From Pseudomonas phage TC6: a DNA stretch of 49,796 nt. The notes below the pieces were generated by a model that ran no database searches, had not been told where the DNA came from, and saw only the letters and a program-made list of their open reading frames with translations. The stretch lies in sequence record MG676466.1, one strand, 5' to 3'. The stretch's first letter is position 1, and each line of letters begins with the position of its first letter. This document shows positions 25,248-46,035 of the stretch, one piece after another. Made by a program: the position numbers and the translations under genes.

Positions 25248-25878
25248 GTTCTTCTTCCTCAAAAGCTTGGATGAACATCTTGCAAGTTTCACTACGAAGA
25301 ACATCATCTACAGTGAAGTGAATAGTATGGACAGGCAAGTTATATCTACCGACCATATCAATAAATCTCGCAAGTCCAGAGTTTTTAAATAGCGGAGAAG
25401 TTTGAGCAATGTCCCCACACAATACAAGTTTACTGTACTCACCTACACGAGTGACCAACACTTTAATCTGCTCGAAGGACATGTTCTGACATTCATCTAC
25501 AATGATGAGAGAGTCATCCCAGGTAAGCCCTTGGATATGTTCAAGCATGTAGTATTGAAGACGATGGTTTTTCTCAAGGTCTTCTTGGTGTCGGATGCCA
25601 ATACCATGCTCAATAAAGTTTTGTTGTAGGGGCCTAATCCAAGGCTCCAACTTCTCTCGCTCAGTGCCAGGCAGAAACCCGTTAGTCTCAGCGAAGGAGA
25701 CGTTGGGTCTAGCAATCACTACACGGCTCTTACGGTTAGTTTCTAGCCACGATACAGCTCGACCAATAGCACCATATGTCTTACCGGTCCCAGCGCTTCC
25801 ATACGCCACTACAGGCATGTTCTTGCGGTCATGCAGGGCAAGGTCATACAGTTCATGCATTTTAGTTGGTTTAAGCAT
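25231..25878 (-). CDS. phoH: PhoH-like ATPase
   Basis: Walker A motif GSAGTGKT. Start refined to MLKPTKMHELYD, which overlaps the ThyX stop by 8 nt. Confidence 0.85.
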   Translation of the reverse strand: MLKPTKMHELYDLALHDRKNMPVVAYGSAGTGKTYGAIGRAVSWLETNRKSRVVIARPNVSFAETNGFLPGTEREKLEPWIRPLQQNFIEHGIGIRHQEDLEKNHRLQYYMLEHIQGLTWDDSLIIVDECQNMSFEQIKVLVTRVGEYSKLVLCGDIAQTSPLFKNSGLARFIDMVGRYNLPVHTIHFTVDDVLRSETCKMFIQAFEEEEHDRSI

Positions 25879-26512
25879 TTTTAAGGGCCTTCCAAGAATG
25901 TGGGAAAATGGGTTGAACAACTTCTTCCAACTTCTGTGCAAACTCTTGAGCTTCTTTCTGAGCGTGGCTATCAATACGTAGACGCCATGCATGGAAGAAG
26001 GCAGTCAGACTTCCAGTCCAAATCCAATCAACCATCATGCTTTGAGGCAACACCATACGAGCTTGTTCTGTCGCTACATTGCAAGCAAGCATGTTTTCAT
26101 AAGTAGCCAGTGAATGCTTTATATACTCAGAATAGATTGACTTAAACATGTCATTATCTTCTACGACACCGCCACTACCTTGTTTTACGGAACCATCAGG
26201 GCGACTACGCCAATTATCAGGAACAAAGAATTCAATACCAGCATCGACGTAGCGACGTGATACCTCGTTCCAAGAGAGTCCAACTTGGTGCTTGCCGAGT
26301 TGCCTAGCAAGAAAGACCGGAGCTTTACAACTAAGGGTAATTGCTGTATGGCGGAAAGGACTAGAATGTTCATGACGAGCAAGGTAATTAATAAGACCAA
26401 CATCACCCTCGTCTAACTCTTCTTTCCATTTGTTGAAAGACACGCGGGCAGCATTAGCCACCCGCAAGTCATCTCCCATACTATCCACTAGTTCTACTTT
26501 GATTTCAGCCAC
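25871..26512 (-). CDS. thyX: flavin-dependent thymidylate synthase ThyX
   Basis: ThyX-like RHxxxS region (ARHEHSSPFRH) with family-typical length and composition. Confidence 0.75.
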   Translation of the reverse strand: MAEIKVELVDSMGDDLRVANAARVSFNKWKEELDEGDVGLINYLARHEHSSPFRHTAITLSCKAPVFLARQLGKHQVGLSWNEVSRRYVDAGIEFFVPDNWRSRPDGSVKQGSGGVVEDNDMFKSIYSEYIKHSLATYENMLACNVATEQARMVLPQSMMVDWIWTGSLTAFFHAWRLRIDSHAQKEAQEFAQKLEEVVQPIFPHSWKALKNA

Positions 26513-35330: not shown

Positions 35331-35624
35331 TTATGTAGAAATATGATTACGAACAAGGATATCGTTAACACACTTATCACGATCTTCCTCGTCAATGTAT
35401 CCGTTAGGGTTGTTCTGCCCACCTACATAACCCCACTCGTAAATACTTCGCAGCCATCCAGGTAAGTCAGATAGCTTTGCGCACAGTGCTGCGACTTCCT
35501 CCCTGAGCGCCTGGGCCTCTTCGGCGAGGTCGTCGTAGTCCTGGCTAAGGACGAACTCCCCGAATTGGCTTTCTTCCCAGCCATAGATATTTCCAACCGG
35601 GCTGATCTTCTTCACCTCACTCAT
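35331..35624 (-). CDS. hypothetical protein
   Basis: 97 aa. Its N-terminal third lies within the GC-rich island. Confidence 0.4.
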   Translation of the reverse strand: MSEVKKISPVGNIYGWEESQFGEFVLSQDYDDLAEEAQALREEVAALCAKLSDLPGWLRSIYEWGYVGGQNNPNGYIDEEDRDKCVNDILVRNHIST

Positions 35625-36966
35625 GGATCAGTCCTCCCGATACAGGTCGTATTTGCGGCAGATGGCGTCCATTTCCGGGCGCGGCGGCGAGAGATCGCAG
35701 ACCATCATGGATGGCTCGCAGGTCGTCGTCGGTCGGCTCTGTGCGCAGGTACAGAACTACGGAGCGCGGATAGGCGAAGTCTCGTCCGATCCCTGACACC
35801 TCCGGCACGCTGTGCTGAGCCTGGGCTACAGGGGCGGTGTAGAGCTTCGTGCCCGACGGTATGCCTTTCAGGTCGCGATAGAAATGAAGGCCGTTCCAGT
35901 CTTCACCCGGCACCCTCGCAACGGTCGCCACCGGCTCCTGCTTCTCCATCTCCGCCAGTTTGGCGTTGGCGTCCATCAGCAGCGCGCAATAGTTGTCTGC
36001 CATAGTTTTCATATCTGCGACCCTGGCCAGGGCGGCGTCGCGCTCTGCCGTGCGGCCCGAAACCAGACCATCAAGACGAGCAATTTCCGCTTCCCGTTCC
36101 CGGATTTCGTTCTGCAAGGCTCGGTAGGTTTCCTGGCCGGAATCCATGTAATCGTTCTTGTGCTGGCGGAGCTGGGCTATCACCGCCCGCAGTTCCCCGA
36201 CGATGCACTCATGCTGGGCGACGGTCATCAGCGATTGATATTCGCCGCCGGATTTCCATTCATCGAGACATGCCTTGTCGCTGACGATTCCGCCTCTGGA
36301 GTCGTAACGCCACGCCACCACCTCCGGCCGCTCCGCCTCTGCCTGCTCGGCTAGTGCCTCGGTCGCGTCCTCCACGAAGAACCCGCAGTGCCGGCACTCG
36401 CGGCCGGTCTTTGTCACGCCGTTGCGGTTCCACCAGACGCCATAGAAGTCGTGCCGGCAGGTCTGTTCGGTGGTGGTGCCGCGCTCGGCCAGGTCCGGCG
36501 CAGGGGAGGGTTGCGCTAGGGCGGCGTAATAGACGGGAGTGCCAACCGGCATTTCCCACGCGCTACGGTCTTTTGCCCATTCGAGATATCGTGAGGTTTC
36601 ATCACCCGCAACGTGTGCTACGGGAGCGATTGAAATTGGGCGGTCCGCCTCGGTGCCTTCAGGCATAGGCCCCCATTCTGTAGCCTGATTTCGACGGTCT
36701 TGATAAGCCTGTTGCTCTTGCCTGGCTTTCTCTCGCAAAGCGTCAGCCATCTTCGCCATAGGCGATTCATCGGCTACAGGGGTGCTTGCCAGGGCGGCGC
36801 GGGCTTGCCAGGCCATCCAGTACGATTGCGTCTGCGCCAGTTTGTAACAGTTGCCGGAGCGCTCAACCGCCTTCGGGTAGATTCCTTCATCACTGGCCCA
36901 GTATTCGAACTTGGCGCGCTCATCCCCGCCTGCCTGCTCTACCGATTCCTTGTTCAGTTCGCTCAT
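35617..36966 (-). CDS. hypothetical protein encoded in GC-rich island
   Basis: 449 aa ORF in a 60-68% GC segment, with Cys pairs (CRHDFYG...CRHCGF) and a C-terminal coiled coil. The overlapping ORFs on other frames are GC-driven artefacts. Confidence 0.5.
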   Translation of the reverse strand: MSELNKESVEQAGGDERAKFEYWASDEGIYPKAVERSGNCYKLAQTQSYWMAWQARAALASTPVADESPMAKMADALREKARQEQQAYQDRRNQATEWGPMPEGTEADRPISIAPVAHVAGDETSRYLEWAKDRSAWEMPVGTPVYYAALAQPSPAPDLAERGTTTEQTCRHDFYGVWWNRNGVTKTGRECRHCGFFVEDATEALAEQAEAERPEVVAWRYDSRGGIVSDKACLDEWKSGGEYQSLMTVAQHECIVGELRAVIAQLRQHKNDYMDSGQETYRALQNEIREREAEIARLDGLVSGRTAERDAALARVADMKTMADNYCALLMDANAKLAEMEKQEPVATVARVPGEDWNGLHFYRDLKGIPSGTKLYTAPVAQAQHSVPEVSGIGRDFAYPRSVVLYLRTEPTDDDLRAIHDGLRSLAAAPGNGRHLPQIRPVSGGLIHE

Positions 36967-37715
36967 TTCAATTCCTCAAACCTTTTGACATAACCTTCGA
37001 GCGTCGTGCCATCAACTCCTGGAGCTGTATTGACTTCCAGCACGTATGCTTGCTGTTCCTTCTCGTTGAAGATGACGTCTGCTGCACCGAAGTCAAGTCC
37101 ACAGGCTTCAACAGCCTTAATAGCTTGTTCAATAATGTCTTCATGAGGTTTAATTCCTTCGTTACGTGCAAAGATAAAACCACCACCAATGTTCCTAATC
37201 TTCCAATTCACTTCGTCATCAGGAACATCTTTCTTACGTGCTTTTCTTTGAATATCTACACATTCACCACGGAACACATGAATTCGCCACTCTTGTTTCT
37301 TGGGCACATACTTAGTGTACAGAGGTGCATCAACAAGCTCATCATCACCTGGCCCTACAAGTACAATACCCTTACCACTGTTTGCATTTAGCAAAGTACG
37401 ACATACTACAGTGTTGCCACCATCCACCCATTTAAGGGCCTCAGCTTTCTCTGTAGTGGATTCTGGTGTACGGGCATGCCCTACCATTGCCTCGAAGAAA
37501 GAACGCTTGTTAGCGGCCATAGAGACGGCTACAGAGGTATTAACAACCGTACACTTAAGAACTTCTTCTGGAAGGTTGCTACTACCCCAGTTAATCACCA
37601 CTTTATCTGGGGAGCCTTTGAACTTAGAGTTCTTATGCTTAATAAATTTTACATTAAGCATGTCCTTGATTTGCTTACCAGCCTTACTGGCGTTATTGTA
37701 CGCATAGATAAACAT
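36963..37715 (-). CDS. ATP-grasp ligase
   Basis: C-terminal VLEVNTAPG and glycine-rich GKGIVLV, typical of RimK/GshB-type ATP-grasp enzymes. Confidence 0.65.
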   Translation of the reverse strand: MFIYAYNNASKAGKQIKDMLNVKFIKHKNSKFKGSPDKVVINWGSSNLPEEVLKCTVVNTSVAVSMAANKRSFFEAMVGHARTPESTTEKAEALKWVDGGNTVVCRTLLNANSGKGIVLVGPGDDELVDAPLYTKYVPKKQEWRIHVFRGECVDIQRKARKKDVPDDEVNWKIRNIGGGFIFARNEGIKPHEDIIEQAIKAVEACGLDFGAADVIFNEKEQQAYVLEVNTAPGVDGTTLEGYVKRFEELK

Positions 37716-38662
37716 TAGAACGGCACTCCTTCTTCAACCCAAATCGGTGGGAAGATTTCTTTTGGTACTTCAGCAAAGAACGCAACGGGATCAAAGTCAT
37801 AGTTAAGAACTTCCTTTCTCGGTGCTGGTACAGGCGGAACAATCTCTTCTTGGAAGAACTGTTGCCAATCACAACAGAAAGCAATGTCCTGTGCTCGTCG
37901 CATACCATCGTTCAACATCTTGGGTACGTTGTCATAGTCTTTAAACAACTCTACATGCTCACCAAGACATTTATTAAGGAACGCTACGTAGTCCCCCTCA
38001 GAATAACTGTTGATAATATCCTTAGGATCAGTAAACTTCTTAGCAGCTTCACGAAGATCAACAAGAATATTAGCCCATTTATGAATGAGGTTTAGATCAC
38101 GAGTGCCACGCATAGCACGGAACTCAAGACTGCCATACGTACCCAAAGCCTTGACGTTCATAGAGCCATAGCGAAGATTATCGTCAGTCAGAATGCGTCT
38201 GAACTGTCGAGTACGTGCTGCCTCTGACAACCTAAACAACAGCCATTCTGCGTCACAAGCACGAAGGCAAAACAAATTGCCCTCTCGATATGGACCACAG
38301 AACTTAACCAAAAGTTCCTCAAGAGTAAGGTAGAGCGTCATAAAGTTATAAAGCTCTACAATGTTTAGTTGCTGAACGTTGATATGCACATGGACACCAG
38401 CACGTACCGTGTCATCAACAACTGAATTGTTCTTCTTGTATTGCATGTTAAGATGGCTTAGAGCAAGCTTAACTTGACGGAGAGTCATAGGTTTTTCTAG
38501 GACATACTCTGCGTTATCTTCGCCACGAAGAGAGCCGTCAGCCTCTACTCTCCAATACCTATCAAAAGCTTTGGGCAAGTTCTTACCCTCCACTTCAATC
38601 TCTACACCAACATCACCCTTGGTGGGTAGTTGGATGCCGAACCATTGCATTACAGTTTTCAT
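37715..38662 (-). CDS. amidoligase (Amidoligase_2 / GS-like family)
   Basis: VGVEIEVEG motif near the N-terminus and HVHINV, characteristic of the phage-associated GS-like amidoligase family. Confidence 0.55.
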
Positions 38663-39228
38663 AGCACCTCCTGTAGTGCTTCACGAAGAAACATAAACTC
38701 ACCGCTCAGTTCTGGATTACCGTCTCTCACACAACCAACAATCAGGTTTTTGTAAATGAGTGGCCTATTATTTTTCAATTTACTATCGCCAACAGCCCAC
38801 TCCCTACACCAAGCTCTCAATACTCTAGCTGGTGAATCAACACACTCTTGCAAAGTTGGGTAGATGCCTTCAATAGTATCTGCTAACGCATTGTAGTTAA
38901 CTAGATCGGCAGGAGTGCCGTATACTGAAGTGAAGTTTCCAATTCGTAGCCCTTGTCTCCAATCCCTACGCATTGGCATGCGAGTAAGGTAAGAGATTGC
39001 ATTGCCAATATTGGCAAAACCTAGCTTTACAGGAGTCAAGTCTAGGTCGTCAAGGTTAACAATATTACCCTCACCACCTCGAAGAGAAGTGATCAGGACT
39101 CCTTTCTTCATCACCTTGTTAACAAAGACCCCCTTACCTTCATGCCTAACAATAGTATTGTTAAGTCGGGAGTCTGCATATTGCCAATCATCACCATACA
39201 TATTCATGTTACACCTGCTTGATAACAT
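38659..39228 (-). CDS. hypothetical protein (ligase cluster)
   Basis: 189 aa. Start overlaps the upstream stop. Confidence 0.35.
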
Positions 39229-40072
39229 AATCCCCTAGGAAGCCCTTTTCGGCCAGTACAAATCCAGGCGGCATAGGGATTTTGTTTTTACCAAGGAGAT
39301 ATGCTAGGTTTCTTTCATCAGGTTTAGCTGATACGCCGAGTGACCGAACAGTGTCGTCATATTCCTCATTGTAAGCAGGCTTACCCTCAAGGAGTTTTTT
39401 GATGCCAAGCACAGTATTTTTAAATACCCACTTCATAAGTGCTTTATCTTTCAACCAAGCGTTGGACAACACTCGATACTCAACACCATACGGCTTAGGA
39501 CGGAATGCTCCCATAGCACCATAAAGAGTACGACGCTTCACTTGCTTATCATAAAGAAGGCTGGGCAACCCAAGGTAATAGTCAAGCTGTTTTGCTGCCA
39601 TGCAGCACGCCTCAATGTGGTCAGGATCACTGATATCAATGTCATTTCCCCAACCAATGTGTACGTGACCAGCACCAGTACGGAAGTCTACTTCAGCATT
39701 GGGGCGAGGATTAGCTGCACCGTTTTCATAAGCGTTGAAGTCAGGCTCGCACCCAAGTTCTTTCGCTTCGTCAGGTTGGCCTTTGATATAATCGAAACCG
39801 AATTCAGCAACCGGAGATGGGTTCAATTCGAACCCAGGTACCATACCCTTAAGGGTGGACATTACCGTAGTTAGGTTGCGTACAAATTCTTTCTCATCTT
39901 TAGCCGGATCAATGTTGAACTCAAGCGCCATGCCATCTACTTGGACAGCACCCTTGTCAACCTTGAAAGGTTCTTTCTTGTTGCCAGGAATGGCACCATG
40001 CGCTGATACGAATTTGCCGTCCTTCATCATGAAGATTTCCGGGTCAGCGCCAACCAGAATATTCAGACTCAT
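39209..40072 (-). CDS. carboxylate-amine ligase, GCS2/YbdK-like (second amidoligase)
   Basis: VGADPEIF, MALEFNIDP and TGAGHVHIGW motifs resemble the glutamate-cysteine-ligase-2 / GS-like fold. Confidence 0.5.
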   Translation of the reverse strand: MSLNILVGADPEIFMMKDGKFVSAHGAIPGNKKEPFKVDKGAVQVDGMALEFNIDPAKDEKEFVRNLTTVMSTLKGMVPGFELNPSPVAEFGFDYIKGQPDEAKELGCEPDFNAYENGAANPRPNAEVDFRTGAGHVHIGWGNDIDISDPDHIEACCMAAKQLDYYLGLPSLLYDKQVKRRTLYGAMGAFRPKPYGVEYRVLSNAWLKDKALMKWVFKNTVLGIKKLLEGKPAYNEEYDDTVRSLGVSAKPDERNLAYLLGKNKIPMPPGFVLAEKGFLGDYVIKQV

Positions 40073-40081
40073 ATCGTTTAC

Positions 40082-41395
40082 CTATGCTTGTTTAAGATAT
40101 TGTTTAACGTCAGGAAACTCTTTACAACTACCGCAAACAAAATTGTGCTTGTCCAACCACAACAAATCGTTAGCATCACTTTCATCTACGGGACTACTAC
40201 ACCATGAACAACATTTTTCTGTGCGTTGTTCATATACAACCCTACTAACAACTTCACCACCATATACAACAAATGTCTCAGGTGGAGTGTCGTCAGCAGT
40301 ATTACCAAGCTCAATAATCTCTTCGACTGTACGGAGATCAATGGTCAAATAGCCTTTTTCAGAGCTACTATACGACTTAACATGAGCCTTAAAGAAGTTA
40401 GAAGAGTTAAGCATCTTGTGCCAAAGCTCGCTACCTTCTCCAGCGTAACAACGAATGGAGACTAGGTCGTTGTCACATGCCCAGCATTGCAGGAACTTTT
40501 GGTTGTAGTTATTAGTTGAAACCTTATCGACGTAGAAGTCGCATGATTTTCCTACAAACCTTTGATACTCCGCAAATCCCGCTGCTGGCGTGGACTTTCC
40601 CACATTGGTGGCTGCCGAAAAGACGTTATTAGCAGCCGTAGAGGTAGTAGACGCCACTACGGCTTTCTGAAAATTTTGACGAAGCTCCAGTTTCCTAGTG
40701 CGACATTTTTCCAGAGGCTTATATTGATATGGGGAGCCGAGGGGAATGTCAAAGCTGAAGTGGATGCCAATGGGTACAGAGAAAATTTCTCCAAACTTCT
40801 GGCCAGCCATGCCACAAGCAACTTCAATCATCCAATCTTCACTAGCCCAAATAATCGCTTTACGATCTTCGGTGAAACAGTAGTAGAGGGGTCGCTCACT
40901 GTTACGAATGAAGTTAATAGTGCTCTCTTCCTTGTTATACCAAGTGAGTGCGAATGCACCATCTAGAACTTTGACAGTTTCTGCTACACCATTACGCTCC
41001 ATGTGATGGTATAGGTTCTCACTGTCCACTTCAAACTGAGTGTTATCGTCCAGATCACGAACAGAACGAAGAGTTCCGTTATGGGCACCTACTAGCGTAT
41101 CAAAATCGAAGGGGTGGGCGTTCTTAGCAGAGATTTTACCTTTGGTTGCCCAACGGTTATGCCCCAGCAGGACATTGAAAGAACCACCCTTAAGGTACTC
41201 TTCAAAGTCTTTACTGTCGAACAGCCCCTCCCAAGGAGTACCAAGCTTCTTGACAACTTTATTGTCGCCATTAGTACGCACCATAGCTACACCAGTGCTA
41301 TGAGGGCCACGTACAGTGTCAAGTTGAAGAAGACAGCGGAAAGTTTTTTCCAAGTTAAACGTAACAGCGCCTGCAACACCGACGAGTCCACACAA
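40082..41395 (-). CDS. class II (Ntn) glutamine amidotransferase domain protein with Cys-rich C-terminal domain; TTG start
   Basis: Begins M-CGLVG (N-terminal nucleophile Cys) with GHNRWATKG...NAHPF. C-terminal half has CWACDN and CCSWCS...CGSC clusters. GGAGGT lies 5 nt upstream of the TTG. Confidence 0.65.
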   Translation of the reverse strand: MCGLVGVAGAVTFNLEKTFRCLLQLDTVRGPHSTGVAMVRTNGDNKVVKKLGTPWEGLFDSKDFEEYLKGGSFNVLLGHNRWATKGKISAKNAHPFDFDTLVGAHNGTLRSVRDLDDNTQFEVDSENLYHHMERNGVAETVKVLDGAFALTWYNKEESTINFIRNSERPLYYCFTEDRKAIIWASEDWMIEVACGMAGQKFGEIFSVPIGIHFSFDIPLGSPYQYKPLEKCRTRKLELRQNFQKAVVASTTSTAANNVFSAATNVGKSTPAAGFAEYQRFVGKSCDFYVDKVSTNNYNQKFLQCWACDNDLVSIRCYAGEGSELWHKMLNSSNFFKAHVKSYSSSEKGYLTIDLRTVEEIIELGNTADDTPPETFVVYGGEVVSRVVYEQRTEKCCSWCSSPVDESDANDLLWLDKHNFVCGSCKEFPDVKQYLKQA

Positions 41396-41400
41396 ATTGC

Positions 41401-41455
41401 ACCTCCAAAAATTTTTCTAAAGTAAATGTCGGCCATTGGCCATTGCATTATTCGA
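41401..41455 (-). promoter_or_regulatory. conserved promoter/leader element copy A
   Basis: Minus-sense sequence TCGAATAATGCAATGGCCAATGGCCGACATTTACTTTAGAAAAATTTTTGGAGGTG. Confidence 0.45.
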
Positions 41456-41948
41456 CATGTTTTCTGTAGCCTGCGTCGTACAGGATTTCGCAGAAGCGTT
41501 TAAGCGTCGTCGACCAGTGGAAGCTATCGAAGGCACCGAGCATCTCGCTGATTGCCTTTTCACGCCCCTCGGCGGCGATCTGTTCAGCGGTGCGGATGGG
41601 GCGCACGCCGTGCCCATTGCGAGGGTAATACTTCCCCTTGTGGCTGATAACAGCGAACACGCCATCATGACCAATGACGCGACCTTTCGCCCAGCCGATA
41701 CTGCCCAGGTTCAGCGAGAACTCACACTCGATGCCAACGGGCGGCAGGCCCTGGCCGTCCCAGGACTCTTGCGGAATAGGTACGTAATAGTCAGGCATGA
41801 ATCCTTTGTCGAAACTGTTGACCATGAACCATTTGCCTTTGTAGTGTTCATACGCAACAGTACCTTCGATTTTTCGCCAAGGATTTATGTCATCGTGTAT
41901 GTGGTAGTGCGTCGCACCATCTGGTGCCTTGCTCCAGTCAATGCTCAT
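41448..41948 (-). CDS. hypothetical protein
   Basis: 166 aa Trp/Tyr-rich ORF. Confidence 0.4.
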   Translation of the reverse strand: MSIDWSKAPDGATHYHIHDDINPWRKIEGTVAYEHYKGKWFMVNSFDKGFMPDYYVPIPQESWDGQGLPPVGIECEFSLNLGSIGWAKGRVIGHDGVFAVISHKGKYYPRNGHGVRPIRTAEQIAAEGREKAISEMLGAFDSFHWSTTLKRFCEILYDAGYRKHVE

Positions 41949-41959
41949 GTTGTGTCCTT

Positions 41960-42148
41960 TTATTTAAATGGTCTGTCGCCGAATTTACTCAGATAAATTT
42001 CTAATGCAGCATCAGCTTCGGTCTGAGCTGTTTGGTTTTTAAAACCATTTTGCTTAGAAGCAATAAAGTTTGCCTTCCAAAATTCTCTTTTATCTAACTC
42101 AAACGCGACACGTGCTCGTCTCTCTTGCTCTTCATCCGTCCGACTCAT
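41960..42148 (-). CDS. small hypothetical protein
   Basis: 62 aa charged ORF. Confidence 0.3.
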   Translation of the reverse strand: MSRTDEEQERRARVAFELDKREFWKANFIASKQNGFKNQTAQTEADAALEIYLSKFGDRPFK

Positions 42149-42771
42149 GCTTTTAATCCCAGATAACGATTAAGCAATTCAAAATAGTAGTCACGAGTGC
42201 TGTCAGCGTTATAAGACTCTGGGTGTGGCTGGAAGCACAAAGACTTGGTGTTGTCGTAATACACTACCTCTACATCTGCCTCATTAGCCAAGAATACGCT
42301 ATCATAGCTTTCCTTAACTTTAGACTCATAGGCAACAGCAATGATTTCTCCATTGTAACCTGGAATCATCATTTGATGGTGAGTGGAAGTTACTGAAAGT
42401 TGTTCACCAGAGAATCTGTCTTCGAGGTCATGTTCCCTACCTTTCGCATGGCCGTTAACATGTTGGTACATCTTACCACCATTCATGACATTAAGAAACT
42501 GGCCACCACGACAAATGCCTGCCATACGAATTTTGTTTCGCTGGGCAAAGGCAAAGTAACCTGCCTCTTCCAAGTCACGTCTTTCATTGTGATAGGTCTT
42601 TGGATGGACGCCTTCACCATACAACATAGGTGTTACATCTTCACCTCCAGTAAATTGGATTAGGTCTGCTGTGAAGAAGTCTTTAATGCTACCTACTTCC
42701 CAACCCATGCGCTTAAACATCTCAGCGTACTGGCCATTCCCGTTGATAATAACTACTTTAGGCACGTCCAA
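42145..42771 (-). CDS. class I glutamine amidotransferase-like / peptidase C26 (gamma-glutamyl hydrolase-like)
   Basis: GICRGGQFLNV nucleophile elbow and CFQPHPE His-Glu region. Confidence 0.55.
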   Translation of the reverse strand: MDVPKVVIINGNGQYAEMFKRMGWEVGSIKDFFTADLIQFTGGEDVTPMLYGEGVHPKTYHNERRDLEEAGYFAFAQRNKIRMAGICRGGQFLNVMNGGKMYQHVNGHAKGREHDLEDRFSGEQLSVTSTHHQMMIPGYNGEIIAVAYESKVKESYDSVFLANEADVEVVYYDNTKSLCFQPHPESYNADSTRDYYFELLNRYLGLKA

Positions 42772-43690
42772 TCTCCTTCATAATTTCATGTTCGAAAGCT
42801 GCCATAGCTTCAATACCCTTCCAATATGAGACGGAGCCGCCCCCTTCTTTGGGCTTAGCTTTCTGAAACGGATTGACGCCTTTGTCGGCCTCAGCTTTCA
42901 CTTTAAAGTTGGCATCTAGCCACTGGCCCATATTATTTCGTGGCTCTATCATTCCCCAACCATTACCTTGCTTATTTTTATGCAGATACATCCTATCGTA
43001 ATAATTATACTGTACACACTCAGAGTATGGCTCATTTGGGGTTGTGACTTTGTGATCAAGCCATGCACACAAAGCTTCTTTATCAAAGAAGTGTGGGTTC
43101 ATAGAGCAATGACCACTGTGGCAAGTCAAGAAATTAATATTGCCTGCCCTATTCGCCCTTGCTTGGCTCTTATGAGCCACCCAAAAAGCCAAGTCTTCAT
43201 TCATACCAGCATGCACCAAGTCATGCCACACGATTAGAATGTGATTGGCTTCCCACAAACGACGAGAAGCTACCAGTCCAGCGGCCAACAGATTAGAGGG
43301 AGCACTACTGTCTGCAATGATACAACTATTTTTAATAGCGTCTTTAGCAGACTTAGTAACAAACACCTTACTGTATGGGCTTCGATTAAGAAGCCAATCT
43401 AGATAGGCTTCTCCCTCTTTAGTATTGAGTAGGTTGCCTATATATTTAGGTTGGAGACCGCTAATCACCGCAATCGAATTAGTCGGCAAACTCTTCAAGC
43501 CAAAGTGGCAAACTTGGTTTGTACTCACTTGCAAGTGATCTTTGTACGCATGATTTTTGTACACAGCGCCAACACTTGCCATGTACGCTGCGCATAATTT
43601 GTAATGGCCATCAACTTTCCCCTTGCCGAGTAGAATTTTCTTAAATACTTTCCTGGCTTTTAACGCAATGAGGTAGTGTTCCCGTTTCAT
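42758..43690 (-). CDS. hypothetical protein
   Basis: 310 aa with His-rich motifs (HDLVHAG, CHSGHC). Confidence 0.4.
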   Translation of the reverse strand: MKREHYLIALKARKVFKKILLGKGKVDGHYKLCAAYMASVGAVYKNHAYKDHLQVSTNQVCHFGLKSLPTNSIAVISGLQPKYIGNLLNTKEGEAYLDWLLNRSPYSKVFVTKSAKDAIKNSCIIADSSAPSNLLAAGLVASRRLWEANHILIVWHDLVHAGMNEDLAFWVAHKSQARANRAGNINFLTCHSGHCSMNPHFFDKEALCAWLDHKVTTPNEPYSECVQYNYYDRMYLHKNKQGNGWGMIEPRNNMGQWLDANFKVKAEADKGVNPFQKAKPKEGGGSVSYWKGIEAMAAFEHEIMKEIGRA

Positions 43691-44622: not shown

Positions 44623-44705
44623 TGGCGCAGGAGGCGGGGTTCGAACCCGCATTTTCAGCTCCAATTACCCTTATCAATTTAGAAGACTGATGGGGCTACT
44701 CCCGC
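44623..44705 (-). other. tRNA-like element (acceptor stem + T-arm + encoded CCA), non-canonical D/anticodon region
   Basis: Minus-sense GCGGGAG...GCGGG-TTCGAAC-CCCGC-CTCCTGC-G-CCA. The T-arm has a perfect 5 bp stem with a TTCGAAC loop. A 7 bp acceptor stem (one G-U) is followed by a discriminator and CCA. The middle 46 nt do not fold into a canonical D or anticodon arm. Confidence 0.3.
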
Positions 44706-45131
44706 ACGACCTTTAAATCCACCCTTTGACCTTGTGAATTTAGCATTACAAGACCTAGAGCAGAAAAGATTCTTCTTGCCAGCTACTTGATTGGCCCATT
44801 TTCTAAATTCACAACTACAAAAAGCACATGACACCACTAAAGACTTTCTTTCTTTTCTATCAAAACATGTCTTCTTCATATGGTCTGACTTGCTAAGTAC
44901 TTGTAAGTTTTCTAACGAGTCGTTAGTCTTATCTCCATCTATGTGGTCAACTTCTTCAGACTTATCTAGTAGCCGCGCTAAGTGCACTGATACCACATAC
45001 TTAGCGTAGGATATTGTTGTTCTATCTTTGTTTGAGTTAAATAGGTCAACCCTTGCTCTGTCGTCCTTACATTTTCTGACATACCCATATTTATAAAGTT
45101 CTTTGTACGGGCTTTGTAATTCTATCTTCAT
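44679..45131 (-). CDS. HNH homing endonuclease
   Basis: VDHIDGDKTNDSLENLQVLSKSDH HNH motif with a C-terminal Cys cluster. Its last 9 codons read into the tRNA-like element. Confidence 0.7.
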   Translation of the reverse strand: MKIELQSPYKELYKYGYVRKCKDDRARVDLFNSNKDRTTISYAKYVVSVHLARLLDKSEEVDHIDGDKTNDSLENLQVLSKSDHMKKTCFDRKERKSLVVSCAFCSCEFRKWANQVAGKKNLFCSRSCNAKFTRSKGGFKGRAGVAPSVF

Positions 45132-45974: not shown

Positions 45975-45980
45975 GATTAT

Positions 45981-46035
45981 ACCCTCGAAAATTTTTCTAA
46001 TATAAAAGCCAGCCATTGCCCATTGCATTATTCGA
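45981..46035 (-). promoter_or_regulatory. conserved promoter/leader element copy B
   Basis: Minus-sense sequence TCGAATAATGCAATGGGCAATGGCTGGCTTTTATATTAGAAAAATTTTCGAGGGT. Confidence 0.45.

What the first reader, a model, noticed from the sequence alone, without database searches (positions are those of the whole stretch)
36963..43690. Contiguous peptide-ligase/amidotransferase cluster (ATP-grasp + two GS-like amidoligases + Ntn GAT-II + class I GATase/C26) of unknown substrate
This cluster is the strongest candidate in the window for an uncharacterised biochemical system. Seven to eight co-oriented genes sit together. They encode an ATP-grasp enzyme (VLEVNTAPG), an Amidoligase_2-type GS-like enzyme (VGVEIEVEG) and a second GCS2/YbdK-like carboxylate-amine ligase. 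They also encode an Ntn class II glutamine amidotransferase with N-terminal Cys and a Cys-rich extra domain. A class I GATase / gamma-glutamyl-hydrolase-like protein (GICRGG...HPE) and several unknowns complete the set. This combination has been predicted from comparative genomics to make gamma-glutamyl or other peptide-like tags or small metabolites, but to my knowledge has no experimentally defined product. In a phage it could modify virion or host proteins, or a nucleotide or cell-wall precursor. The cluster follows a conserved promoter/leader element (copy A), which suggests coordinated expression.
Basis: partly seen in the sequence, partly recalled or inferred. Interest (0 to 1): 0.85.

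Follow-up and report, generated by a model that had tools for sequence, protein, structure and literature searches.

The report
Known phage gamma-glutamyl/peptide-ligase operon, substrate unknown
This is the well-conserved but never experimentally solved "phiEco32-type" operon of amide-bond-making and gamma-glutamyl-cleaving enzymes carried by many lytic podophages, here in Pseudomonas phage TC6/PA11; it is real and correctly read, but already described in the literature.

Summary
Window 36963-43690 holds nine co-oriented minus-strand ORFs. Five are enzymes with conserved catalytic residues: an ATP-grasp ligase, Amidoligase_2, the phiEco32-type COOH-NH2 ligase (PF14395), an Ntn GAT-II with a C-terminal zinc ribbon, and a Peptidase_C26/class I GATase.

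The window is Pseudomonas phage TC6 (PA11 group, Paundecimvirus). The operon is already published. Iyer 2009 and Hardies 2013 described it, Duhaime 2017 lists PA11 by name, and the TC6 genome paper annotates all five enzymes. I found no experimentally defined product.

- The invariant core is the triad COOH-NH2 ligase, a 182-aa tandem SH3-like Arg-rich protein, then Amidoligase_2. GAT-II and usually the ATP-grasp accompany it.
- All but two of 23 loci (one of those two is truncated) carry a C26 enzyme, a gamma-glutamyl cyclotransferase, or both. This argues that gamma-glutamyl bonds are made and then cleaved.
- Two ORFs inside the cluster (41448-42148) are variable inserted genes, not members.
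- The "leader element" lies inside the cluster, directly before GAT-II.
- Natural deletion or split alleles in viable phages suggest an accessory role.

Best reading: a cytoplasmic gamma-glutamyl/peptide-like assembly-and-unmasking pathway with an unknown acceptor.

The parts
42758..43690 (-). 310-aa conserved protein of unknown fold, rich in conserved Cys/His. It is a lineage-restricted accessory member encoded directly upstream of the C26 gene.
42145..42771 (-). Peptidase_C26 / class I GATase-fold enzyme. Read here as a gamma-glutamyl-amide hydrolase.
   Evidence: Peptidase_C26 at 1e-16 is stronger than GATase at 7e-6. The Cys87-His183-Glu185 triad is nearly invariant in 12 homologues. Weak NCBIfam hits include the PuuD-type gamma-glutamyl-GABA hydrolase. 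In RIO-1, a gamma-glutamyl cyclotransferase occupies the position before GAT-II that C26 occupies in TC6. LUZ24-like, Kuravirus and 7-11 modules have a cyclotransferase and no C26.
41960..42148 (-). 62-aa ORF lying inside the cluster. Not a conserved member; an inserted variable gene.
   Evidence: Absent from phage O4, although the flanking C26 and GAT-II genes are about 99% identical between the two phages. Its only PHROG match is its own small family.
41448..41948 (-). 166-aa ORF lying inside the cluster. Not a conserved member; a mobile variable gene.
   Evidence: 54% GC against about 44% for the module. Only 43% identical to the O4 counterpart. An 88-93% identical DNA stretch occurs in unrelated Pseudomonas phages such as YMC11/02/R656, PAJU2 and PA5oct.
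41396..41455 (-). 60-nt repeated leader element ending in a Shine-Dalgarno-like GGAGG just before the TTG start of GAT-II.
   Evidence: A direct repeat with 45976-46035 at 82% identity. Both copies abut a start codon. There were 0 matches in 100 shuffles. Phage O4 also has two copies. Its function as a promoter is not shown, and the consensus promoter scan found nothing significant.
40082..41395 (-). Ntn class II glutamine amidotransferase domain (residues 1 to about 215) followed by a variable linker and a C-terminal CxxC...CxxC zinc ribbon.
   Evidence: GATase_6 at 3.6e-16. The N-terminal Met-Cys is kept in 13 of the 14 homologues with an intact N-terminus. R81, N106-G107 and D124 are invariant in 15 homologues, and the GHNRWATKG and HNG motifs resemble GlmS. 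The terminal zinc ribbon is aligned in most homologues, while the middle region is not conserved. GlmS and PurF are the nearest solved relatives, over the glutaminase domain only.
39209..40072 (-). phiEco32-type COOH-NH2 ligase type 2, a glutamine-synthetase-like ATP-dependent carboxylate-amine ligase. First gene of the invariant triad.
   Evidence: PF14395 at 6.3e-11 and phrog_3815 at 6.6e-97. Invariant or near-invariant residues: D10, E12, E51, H136, H138, E198, R200. No PDB sequence relative. Present in 318 phage records.
38659..39207 (-). 182-aa tandem SH3-like-barrel protein with the near-invariant Arg-rich motif [13 protein letters not shown]. It is the unannotated middle member of the triad, and is probably a substrate- or partner-binding subunit.
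37715..38662 (-). Amidoligase_2, a glutamine-synthetase-like ATP-dependent ligase. Third gene of the triad.
   Evidence: PF12224 at 31.7 bits against a cut-off of 22 and phrog_7469 at 1.8e-127. Invariant residues: E21, E23, E25, H91, H93, N95, E180, R182. No PDB sequence relative.
36963..37715 (-). ATP-grasp ligase, RimK-like or R2K.2-like. Last gene of the module.
   Evidence: phrog_2599 at 2.9e-100. R2K_2 and RimK are below Pfam cut-offs. Across 16 homologues, 7 match RimK and 7 match R2K_2. The best NCBIfam hit is MptN, an alpha-L-glutamate ligase, at 2e-10 but far below its cut-off. The E227-x-N229 and D213 motifs are conserved.

Best explanation
The cluster is the Paundecimvirus (TC6/PA11) version of the phiEco32-type phage operon for unusual amide bonds. 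All its proteins are soluble and cytoplasmic, and it lies between the early genes and the replication genes.

Proposed mechanism:
1. The two glutamine-synthetase-like ligases (COOH-NH2 ligase type 2 and Amidoligase_2) each use ATP to activate a carboxylate as an acyl-phosphate. Each then joins it to an amine. At least one of these bonds is a gamma-glutamyl amide.
2. The small Arg-rich tandem SH3-like protein encoded between the two ligases holds the anionic acceptor or bridges the two ligases.
3. The RimK-like ATP-grasp enzyme adds a further amino acid, most likely glutamate.
4. The GAT-II enzyme binds a glutamine or gamma-glutamyl moiety. It either delivers ammonia to one ligase or hydrolyses a gamma-glutamyl amide.
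5. The C26 enzyme removes a gamma-glutamyl group to unmask the product. In other phages a gamma-glutamyl cyclotransferase does this.

The product is a small peptide-like or gamma-glutamylated adduct on an acceptor that is still unknown. The module is accessory and acts on the phage-host interaction. It is not needed for basic replication.

Shown: enzyme families, conserved catalytic residues, conserved gene order, the C26/cyclotransferase pattern, and dispensability alleles.
Inferred: every chemical step and the acceptor.
For: - Family assignments and catalytic residues are established.
- Gene order is conserved across 22 further loci, from about 45-kb podophages to a 170-kb contig.
- The triad of ligase, SH3-like protein and ligase is universal.
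- All but two of the 23 loci analysed carry C26, a GGCT/AIG2 cyclotransferase, or both. The exceptions are L010 and L007, and L007 is cut at its 5' end.
- In RIO-1 the cyclotransferase sits before GAT-II, the position C26 has in TC6.
- C26 homologues occur in only 58 cultured-phage records, against 318 for the ligase.
- Two unrelated folds share only the ability to break gamma-glutamyl amides, and a cyclotransferase cannot donate ammonia.
- Distant loci add only more ligases, GAT-II, C26 and GGACT-like paralogues, and no other chemistry.
- No cluster protein has a hydrophobic segment.
- Accessory role, three lines of evidence:
  - Phage FBPa8, deposited as a complete genome, has an in-frame deletion of residues about 155-279 of the COOH-NH2 ligase, which removes invariant residues.
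  - Phage TL has a split GAT-II.
  - Directed evolution of a phage whose module genes carry LUZ24-type annotations gave missense changes in both the amidoligase and the GAT-II gene in both evolved lines (PMC11450229).
Against: - No substrate, product or phenotype has been measured.
- Five loci carry both C26 and a cyclotransferase, so the two are not simply interchangeable.
- The GAT-II keeps every glutamine-binding residue of true amidotransferases. An ammonia-channelling role cannot be separated from a hydrolase role by sequence.
- The ATP-grasp subfamily is unresolved.
- The role proposed for the SH3-like protein rests only on its fold, its Arg-rich motif and its position.
- The deletion and split alleles could be recent defects or sequencing artefacts.
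- The missense mutations in the evolution experiment were not tested individually.
Confidence: 0.6

Rival explanations
1. Peptidoglycan or cell-surface remodelling. This is the published hypothesis. The enzymes would rebuild or amidate the peptide stem of cytoplasmic peptidoglycan precursors, so that the infected cell's surface changes and other phages are excluded.
For: - The hypothesis is attributed to Iyer 2009 and repeated in later papers.
- The enzyme types parallel stem-peptide chemistry. From general knowledge: the gamma-D-Glu linkage, the ATP-grasp enzyme Ddl, MurT/GatD using a class I GATase, and AsnB/LtsA-type GAT-II amidation of diaminopimelate.
- Four of 16 ATP-grasp homologues hit the Ddl C-terminal model.
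- Among the genera named in the output, carriers infect Proteobacteria.
Against: - There is no Mur-ligase-family protein, membrane protein or exported protein in the module.
- Nothing in any of the 23 loci links the module to cell-wall genes.
- To my knowledge, gamma-glutamyl cyclotransferases act on L-gamma-glutamyl compounds, not on the D-isoglutamate of the stem.
- The hypothesis has never been tested.
Confidence: 0.15
2. Host- or phage-protein tagging. The ATP-grasp and GS-like ligases would add glutamate or a short peptide tag to a protein, as RimK does on ribosomal protein S6 or PafA does with Pup. The hydrolases would trim or reverse the tag.
For: - Burroughs 2015 proposed that phage R2K.2 ATP-grasp enzymes modify host proteins.
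- The ATP-grasp shows RimK and R2K_2 similarity.
- SH3, Tudor and KOW-like barrels often bind proteins or peptides.
Against: - No conserved small tag-like protein accompanies the module. The small ORFs between C26 and GAT-II vary.
- The RimK and R2K_2 scores are below family cut-offs.
Confidence: 0.12
3. Glutamine-dependent amidation. Each GS-like ligase would pair with one glutaminase (GAT-II or the class I GATase) and convert a carboxylate to a carboxamide. The first reader's title implies this ligase-plus-amidotransferase reading.
For: - GAT-II keeps Cys1, R81, N106-G107 and D124, as in GlmS and PurF.
- The C26 protein also hits the class I GATase model.
- GAT-II is directly adjacent to the COOH-NH2 ligase in the Zobellviridae-type loci.
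Against: - The LUZ24-like, Kuravirus, 7-11 and RIO-1 modules have a cyclotransferase and no class I enzyme. A cyclotransferase cannot supply ammonia.
- The GAT-II to ligase adjacency is not kept in the LUZ24, Kuravirus and 7-11 order.
- The C26 model scores far better than the GATase model.
Confidence: 0.1
4. Nucleic-acid hypermodification. The module would decorate phage DNA or an RNA with an amino-acid-derived group to evade host nucleases.
For: - The module lies next to primase/helicase, DNA polymerase or ribonucleotide reductase genes in most loci.
- Lee 2021 noted amidoligase and amidotransferase genes co-occurring with thymidine hypermodification genes in viral contigs.
- The Arg-rich SH3-like protein and the zinc ribbon could bind nucleic acid.
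Against: - The phage's thymidylate synthase is ThyX.
- No hydroxymethylase, 5-HMUDK, aGPT-Pplase, TET/JBP or transglycosylase was found among the cluster ORFs or ten replication-arm ORFs.
- No such gene was found in the flanks of other loci.
- The papers I read report no DNA modification for these phages.
Confidence: 0.06
5. Auxiliary metabolism. The module would be a phage-run gamma-glutamyl cycle, thiol-peptide pathway or polyamine pathway. It would recycle nitrogen or amino acids, or adjust redox or polyamine pools during infection.
For: - The enzyme set mirrors glutathione synthesis and breakdown, and Puu/Pau polyamine glutamylation (general knowledge). The parallels are GCS-like ligase, GshB-like ATP-grasp, ChaC/GGCT, and PuuA/PuuD.
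- Ribonucleotide reductase genes are interleaved with the module in L010, L013, L016 and L017.
- RIO-1 has a glutaredoxin gene next to the module.
- Duhaime 2017 calls these 'host material recycling genes'.
Against: - No protein reaches any GshA, GshB, PuuA or PuuD equivalog score.
- The hosts already make these metabolites (general knowledge).
- The oxidising steps of polyamine catabolism are absent from the module.
Confidence: 0.07

Closest known systems
phiEco32-type phage amidoligase operon, also called the 'gamma-glutamyl amide / unusual peptide bond' operon (Iyer et al. 2009; Hardies et al. 2013; Duhaime et al. 2017)
   Same: It has the same five enzyme families in the same kind of place, between early genes and primase/helicase in lytic podophages. 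PA11 is listed by name as a carrier. TC6's own paper annotates the five enzymes. PF14395 is named after the phiEco32 founder.
   Different: - The TC6/PA11 version uses a C26 hydrolase and has no cyclotransferase.
- It has the lineage-restricted 310-aa Cys/His protein.
- Two variable genes are inserted in it.
- GAT-II lies before the triad rather than after it.
Butirosin side-chain pathway: BtrJ ATP-grasp gamma-glutamylation and BtrG gamma-glutamyl cyclotransferase removal (general knowledge)
   Same: Both combine an ATP-dependent ligase that installs gamma-glutamyl on an amine with a later cyclotransferase that removes it. This is a protect-and-unmask logic.
   Different: No carrier protein, PLP enzyme, oxygenase or acyltransferase is present here. 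The resemblance is of logic only, and no homology was tested.
Puu/Pau gamma-glutamyl-polyamine pathway: PuuA GS-like ligase and PuuD Peptidase_C26 (general knowledge)
   Same: A GS-like ligase is paired with a C26 gamma-glutamyl hydrolase. PuuD is among the weak NCBIfam hits.
   Different: The score of 20 bits is far below the 266-bit cut-off. There are no oxidase or dehydrogenase steps. The ligases belong to different GS-like families.
Ergothioneine EgtA (gamma-glutamylcysteine ligase) and EgtC (stand-alone GAT-II amidohydrolase) (general knowledge)
   Same: A GCS-type ligase occurs together with a stand-alone Ntn GAT-II that removes glutamate.
   Different: No EgtB, EgtD or EgtE equivalents are present. 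The phage GAT-II carries a zinc ribbon. Orthology is not supported.
RimK (ribosomal protein S6 poly-alpha-glutamylation) and the MptN/CofF cofactor glutamate ligases
   Same: These are the nearest named ATP-grasp relatives.
   Different: All scores are far below family cut-offs. For example, RimK_fam scores 21.9 against 143.4 and MptN scores 40.2 against 350.

Membership tests
phiEco32-type phage amidoligase operon | A co-directional set of COOH-NH2 ligase type 2, Amidoligase_2, GAT-II and ATP-grasp in a tailed lytic phage | tested here: met
   All four are present and co-oriented. The same set is found in 22 other loci, including LUZ24-like, Kuravirus, 7-11, RIO-1 and CW02.
phiEco32-type phage amidoligase operon | An accompanying gamma-glutamyl-bond-cleaving enzyme (GGCT/AIG2 or an equivalent) | tested here: met
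   TC6 has C26 and no GGCT. The other loci have GGCT, C26 or both.
phiEco32-type phage amidoligase operon | A defined product or phenotype | not testable with these tools
   No experimental characterisation was found in 8 literature searches.
Pfam Amidoligase_2 (PF12224) | Score above the gathering threshold, with GS-like metal and ATP residues | tested here: met
   31.7 bits against 22. E21, E23, E25, H91, H93, E180 and R182 are invariant.
Pfam COOH-NH2_lig (PF14395) | Score above the gathering threshold | tested here: met
   42.4 bits against 25. Acidic, His and Arg residues are conserved.
Class II (Ntn) glutamine amidotransferase | N-terminal Cys nucleophile plus the Arg, Asn-Gly and Asp glutamine-binding residues | tested here: met
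   MCG start. R81, N106-G107 and D124 are invariant. GATase_6 scores 59.8 against 27.
Class II amidotransferases of defined pathways (GlmS, PurF, AsnB) | Fused synthase domain and equivalog-level score | tested here: not met
   Scores of 24-54 bits against cut-offs of 267-418. The C-terminal part is a variable linker plus a zinc ribbon, not a synthase domain.
Peptidase_C26 / class I GATase | Cys-His-Glu triad and score above threshold | tested here: met
   61.8 bits against 20.5. C87, H183 and E185 are conserved.
RimK family / R2K.2 ATP-grasp | Score above the family threshold | tested here: not met
   R2K_2 scores 23.2 against 26.2. RimK scores 16 against 21. rimK_fam scores 21.9 against 143.4. 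Only membership of the ATP-grasp superfamily is supported.
Thymidine hypermodification clusters (Lee et al. 2021) | 5-hmdU source (dUMP hydroxymethylase or TET/JBP), 5-HMUDK kinase and aGPT-Pplase | tested here: not met
   None were found among the 10 cluster ORFs or 10 replication-arm ORFs. The thymidylate synthase is ThyX. The small ORFs of the window were not scanned.
Known anti-phage defence proteins (PADLOC) | Match to any PADLOC model | tested here: not met
   No hits for the 9 proteins scanned: 8 of the 9 cluster ORFs plus the 449-aa downstream ORF. The 62-aa ORF was not scanned.

The most novel reading that the evidence does not exclude
The module writes, and then unmasks, a covalent gamma-glutamyl or oligopeptide-type modification that has not been described before. 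The target would be a macromolecule or an envelope precursor: a host protein, a peptidoglycan precursor or a nucleic acid. The universal Arg-rich tandem SH3-like protein would serve as the target-recognition subunit. The modification would decide how the infected cell deals with competing phages or host defences. This would be the first phage-encoded non-ribosomal peptide-tagging pathway.
Probability: 0.25. Interest if true: 0.8.

Novelty: already known. Interest (0 to 1): 0.4.

Why it matters
The operon is one of the most widespread conserved enzyme modules of unknown function in cultured lytic podophages.

- Its ligase occurs in 318 phage records, and thousands of relatives of the SH3-like protein occur in metagenomes.
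- The carriers include Pseudomonas and E. coli phages used for therapy.
- Fifteen years after it was predicted, its substrate is still unknown.
- Solving it would probably reveal new amide-bond biochemistry. It would also explain why evolved therapeutic phages pick up mutations in it.

For this scan, however, the finding adds no new kind of system. Its value is a sharper parts list and a testable chemical logic.

Tried and rejected
- **PDB sequence searches.** Searches for the 310-aa protein and both GS-like ligases found nothing usable.
- **Fold search of the 182-aa protein.** It gave only generic SH3/Tudor/KOW barrels.
- **AlphaFold-database fold library.** It was not available.
- **Defence and pathway libraries.** PADLOC gave no hits. 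NCBIfam gave no equivalog-level hit. This rejects membership in purine, asparagine, hexosamine, glutathione or Puu pathways.
- **A LysW-like carrier.** I considered this for the GAT-II zinc ribbon. The tail after the ribbon is neither acidic nor conserved.
- **The 182-aa protein as the RimK-type substrate.** Its C-terminus does not end in conserved acidic residues.
- **Bacterial genome scan.** A scan with the degenerate motif of the 182-aa protein gave one hit in an archaeal MAG. That hit carries none of the module proteins, so it is a chance match.
- **The leader element.** No further strong copies were found. No consensus promoter or terminator stood out above shuffled sequence.
- **Papers I could not read.** The Iyer 2009 and Hardies 2013 full texts are not held. 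The paper cap stopped me reading the PPAT/PPAY paper.

Full report
**What the window is.** The region matches Pseudomonas phages PSA11 and PA11 at 99.5% identity. The 310-aa protein is 100% identical to a protein named as coming from Pseudomonas phage TC6, found on a contig of 49,796 bp, which is the window's length. The window is therefore phage TC6 or a near-identical member of the PA11 group, genus Paundecimvirus, family Zobellviridae. In the related phage O4, one arm of the genome carries small early genes, then this cluster, then MazG, primase/helicase, a sigma factor, DNA polymerase, exonucleases, ThyX, PhoH and ribonucleotide reductase.

**Checking the observation.** Nine minus-strand ORFs fill 36963-43690, with overlaps or gaps of at most 52 nt.
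- Pfam places four proteins above the curated thresholds: Amidoligase_2, COOH-NH2_lig (PF14395), GATase_6/7 (class II) and Peptidase_C26/GATase.
- The ATP-grasp protein is below the Pfam thresholds for R2K_2 and RimK. It matches phrog_2599 at 2.9e-100 and keeps the ATP-grasp Mg/ATP residues.
- Alignments with homologues from other phages show conserved catalytic residues in each enzyme:
  - GAT-II: the Ntn Cys, R81, N106-G107 and D124.
  - C26: the C87/H183/E185 triad.
  - Amidoligase_2: E21/E23/E25, H91/H93 and E180/R182.
  - COOH-NH2 ligase: D10/E12, E51, H136/H138 and E198/R200.
- The Cys-rich extension of GAT-II ends in a CxxC...CxxC zinc ribbon that aligns in most homologues. The linker before it is variable.

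**Not orthologues of known pathway enzymes.** No protein comes near the curated score of any characterised NCBIfam equivalog, including GlmS, PurF, AsnB, RimK, MptN, Ddl, PuuD and CPSase. None matches a PADLOC defence model. The two GS-like ligases and the 310-aa protein have no relative of known structure by sequence.

**What is conserved elsewhere.** A scan of viral contigs with the COOH-NH2 ligase returned 18 loci. I added annotated regions from phages TL (Bruynoghevirus, the genus of LUZ24), MN05 (Kuravirus, the genus of phiEco32), 7-11, RIO-1, CW02 and FBPa8. Searches with tblastn, clustering and profiles show a module that travels as a block at 25-58% identity. It occurs in phages of about 45 kb up to a 170-kb contig.
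- The invariant core is a triad in fixed order: COOH-NH2 ligase, a protein of about 180-220 aa, then Amidoligase_2.
- GAT-II is in every locus and an ATP-grasp is in nearly all.
- The middle protein of the triad (window 38659-39207) has no Pfam family and is annotated 'hypothetical' in the phage records listed.
  - Its AF2 model is confident (pLDDT 95) and consists of two SH3-like barrels.
  - It carries a near-invariant Arg-rich motif, [13 protein letters not shown].
  - The proteins at the same position in TL, MN05 and 7-11 are homologous to it (hhalign probability 94.6%).
  - A profile search found 3957 cluster representatives. The 150 listed are small, about 175-220 aa, and match over essentially their full length.
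  - A motif scan of 185,579 prokaryotic genomes found only one chance hit. The family therefore looks phage-restricted.
- The 310-aa protein (42758-43690) is a narrower family, many members of which lie on contigs of about 50 kb.
  - It is always encoded just before C26, or before GGCT in RIO-1.
  - It has conserved Cys/His residues and no convincing structural relative.
- The 166-aa and 62-aa ORFs are not members. They differ or are absent in phage O4, although the flanking genes are about 99% identical. The 166-aa gene has 54% GC and shares DNA with unrelated Pseudomonas phages.

**A clue to the chemistry.** All but two of the 23 loci analysed carry a C26 enzyme, a GGCT/AIG2 gamma-glutamyl cyclotransferase, or both. 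The exceptions are L010 and L007, and L007 is cut at its 5' end.
- TC6, O4 and several metagenomic relatives have C26 only.
- TL, MN05, 7-11, RIO-1 and two viral contigs have the cyclotransferase only.
- CW02 and four others have both.
- In RIO-1 the cyclotransferase sits before GAT-II, the position C26 has in TC6.
- Among cultured phages the ligase is in 318 records, but C26 is in only 58.
- These two unrelated folds share one activity, the cleavage of gamma-glutamyl amide bonds. A cyclotransferase cannot donate ammonia.
- I therefore read the C26 protein as a gamma-glutamyl hydrolase rather than an amidotransferase subunit.
- I read the pathway as one that makes at least one gamma-glutamyl amide and later removes the glutamyl group.
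- Extra genes in distant loci are only further ligases, GAT-II, C26 and GGACT-like paralogues.
- No cluster protein has a hydrophobic segment, so the chemistry is cytoplasmic.

**Essential or accessory.** Three observations point to an accessory role.
- Phage FBPa8, deposited as a complete genome, carries an in-frame deletion of residues about 155-279 of the COOH-NH2 ligase. This removes invariant residues.
- In phage TL the GAT-II is annotated as two fragments.
- In a directed-evolution study, a phage whose module genes carry LUZ24-type annotations acquired missense mutations in both the amidoligase and the GAT-II gene. This happened in both evolved lines, at different positions (PMC11450229).

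None of these effects was tested directly.

**Literature status.** The operon is already known.
- Later papers attribute to Iyer et al. 2009 (not held) the proposal that the phiEco32 amidoligase and GATase modify the cell wall to block superinfection.
- Hardies et al. [quoted passage not shown]
- Duhaime et al. 2017 call it a seven-gene 'peptidoglycan modification cassette' and name PA11, phiEco32, 7-11, tf, MR299-2, LUZ24, PaP3 and CW02 as carriers.
- The TC6 genome paper labels the five enzymes.
- Burroughs et al. 2015 proposed host-protein modification for phage R2K.2 ATP-grasp enzymes.
- Lee et al. 2021 noted amidoligase and amidotransferase genes near thymidine-hypermodification genes in some viral contigs.
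- I found no experimental identification of a substrate or product.

**Weighing the acceptor hypotheses.**
- The peptidoglycan idea fits the types of bond involved. It has no support from gene content, because the module has no Mur-type ligase, membrane component or exported component.
- Protein tagging fits the ATP-grasp and the SH3-like fold, but no conserved tag protein exists.
- Pure glutamine-dependent amidation conflicts with the cyclotransferase pattern.
- DNA hypermodification by known routes is unlikely. The thymidylate synthase is ThyX, and no hydroxymethylase, 5-HMUDK, aGPT-Pplase or TET/JBP was found.
- A metabolic role (gamma-glutamyl cycle, thiol peptide or polyamine pathway) fits the neighbouring ribonucleotide reductase and glutaredoxin genes in some loci. 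No orthology supports it.
- I therefore commit only to the general mechanism: ATP-dependent assembly of a gamma-glutamyl or peptide-like adduct, followed by gamma-glutamyl removal, with an accessory role. My confidence in this is about 0.6. The acceptor stays open.

**The leader element.** A 60-nt sequence at 41396-41455 recurs at 45976-46035 with 82% identity.
- Each copy ends in a Shine-Dalgarno-like sequence directly before a start codon.
- The 24-nt core is absent from all 100 shuffles and occurs twice in O4 as well.
- It lies inside the cluster, at the boundary of the variable 166/62-aa insert. It therefore precedes only the run from GAT-II to the ATP-grasp.
- Whether it is a promoter for the phage sigma factor, a translation leader or a recombination boundary cannot be decided here.

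**Verdict.** The finding is real and was read correctly, but it is a known, published and still uncharacterised module. I rate its novelty as 'already known' and its interest as moderate (0.4). The open question is genuine and can be tested in a tractable host, but this finding does not open it.

Noticed in passing
window 35617-36966 (-): A 449-aa ORF lies directly downstream of the ATP-grasp gene, with a 4-nt overlap. It has 61% GC against 45% for the genome. Pieces of it are shared at 90-99% identity with 144 Pseudomonas phage records of many genera. It differs between TC6, PA11/PSA11 and O4. It looks like a mosaic mobile gene of unknown function (PHROG families of unknown function only).
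   Followed up: partly
window 41448-42148 (-): The 166-aa and 62-aa ORFs form a variable insert between C26 and GAT-II. The flanks are about 99% identical between TC6 and O4, but the insert is 43% identical or absent. Part of the 166-aa gene is shared at the DNA level with unrelated Pseudomonas phages, including the jumbo phage PA5oct. This looks like a recombination hotspot bounded by the 60-nt repeat.
   Followed up: partly
window 41396-41455 and 45976-46035 (-): A 60-nt repeat with 82% identity. Each copy lies directly before a start codon, and phage O4 also has two copies. Its function (promoter, leader or recombination boundary) is unknown.
   Followed up: partly
window 44626-44705 (-): Rfam finds a tRNA here (38.7 bits against a gathering score of 29) that ARAGORN does not call. 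It abuts and overlaps the 3' end of an HNH homing-endonuclease ORF (44679-45131). Phage O4 has an annotated tRNA-Arg in the corresponding region.
   Followed up: partly
L026 7256-7753 (phage vB_PaeP_FBPa8, ON857932): The COOH-NH2 ligase carries an in-frame deletion of residues about 155-279, which removes invariant catalytic residues. The genome is deposited as complete.
   Followed up: yes
L021 8508-9609 (phage TL, NC_023583): The GAT-II gene is annotated as two fragments (a misc_feature) rather than a CDS. It is a possible pseudogene in a viable LUZ24-like phage.
   Followed up: no
L010, L013, L016, L017: In four distant viral contigs, ribonucleotide reductase genes are adjacent to or interleaved with the module. 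RIO-1 (L024 10304-10525) has a glutaredoxin gene next to it. This may be a link to deoxynucleotide supply or redox, or only shared placement in the nucleotide-metabolism region.
   Followed up: no
L011, L015, L009, L012, L016, L017, L014: Several loci carry extra paralogues: second ATP-grasp genes, a second COOH-NH2 ligase, a second GAT-II or C26, and long Amidoligase_2 proteins (477-611 aa) with an N-terminal extension of about 200 aa. In L014 and L017 the extension might replace the separate SH3-like protein.
   Followed up: no
window 25871-26512 (-): The phage thymidylate synthase is of the ThyX type (PF02511). A DUF3310 protein and PhoH lie next to it.
   Followed up: yes
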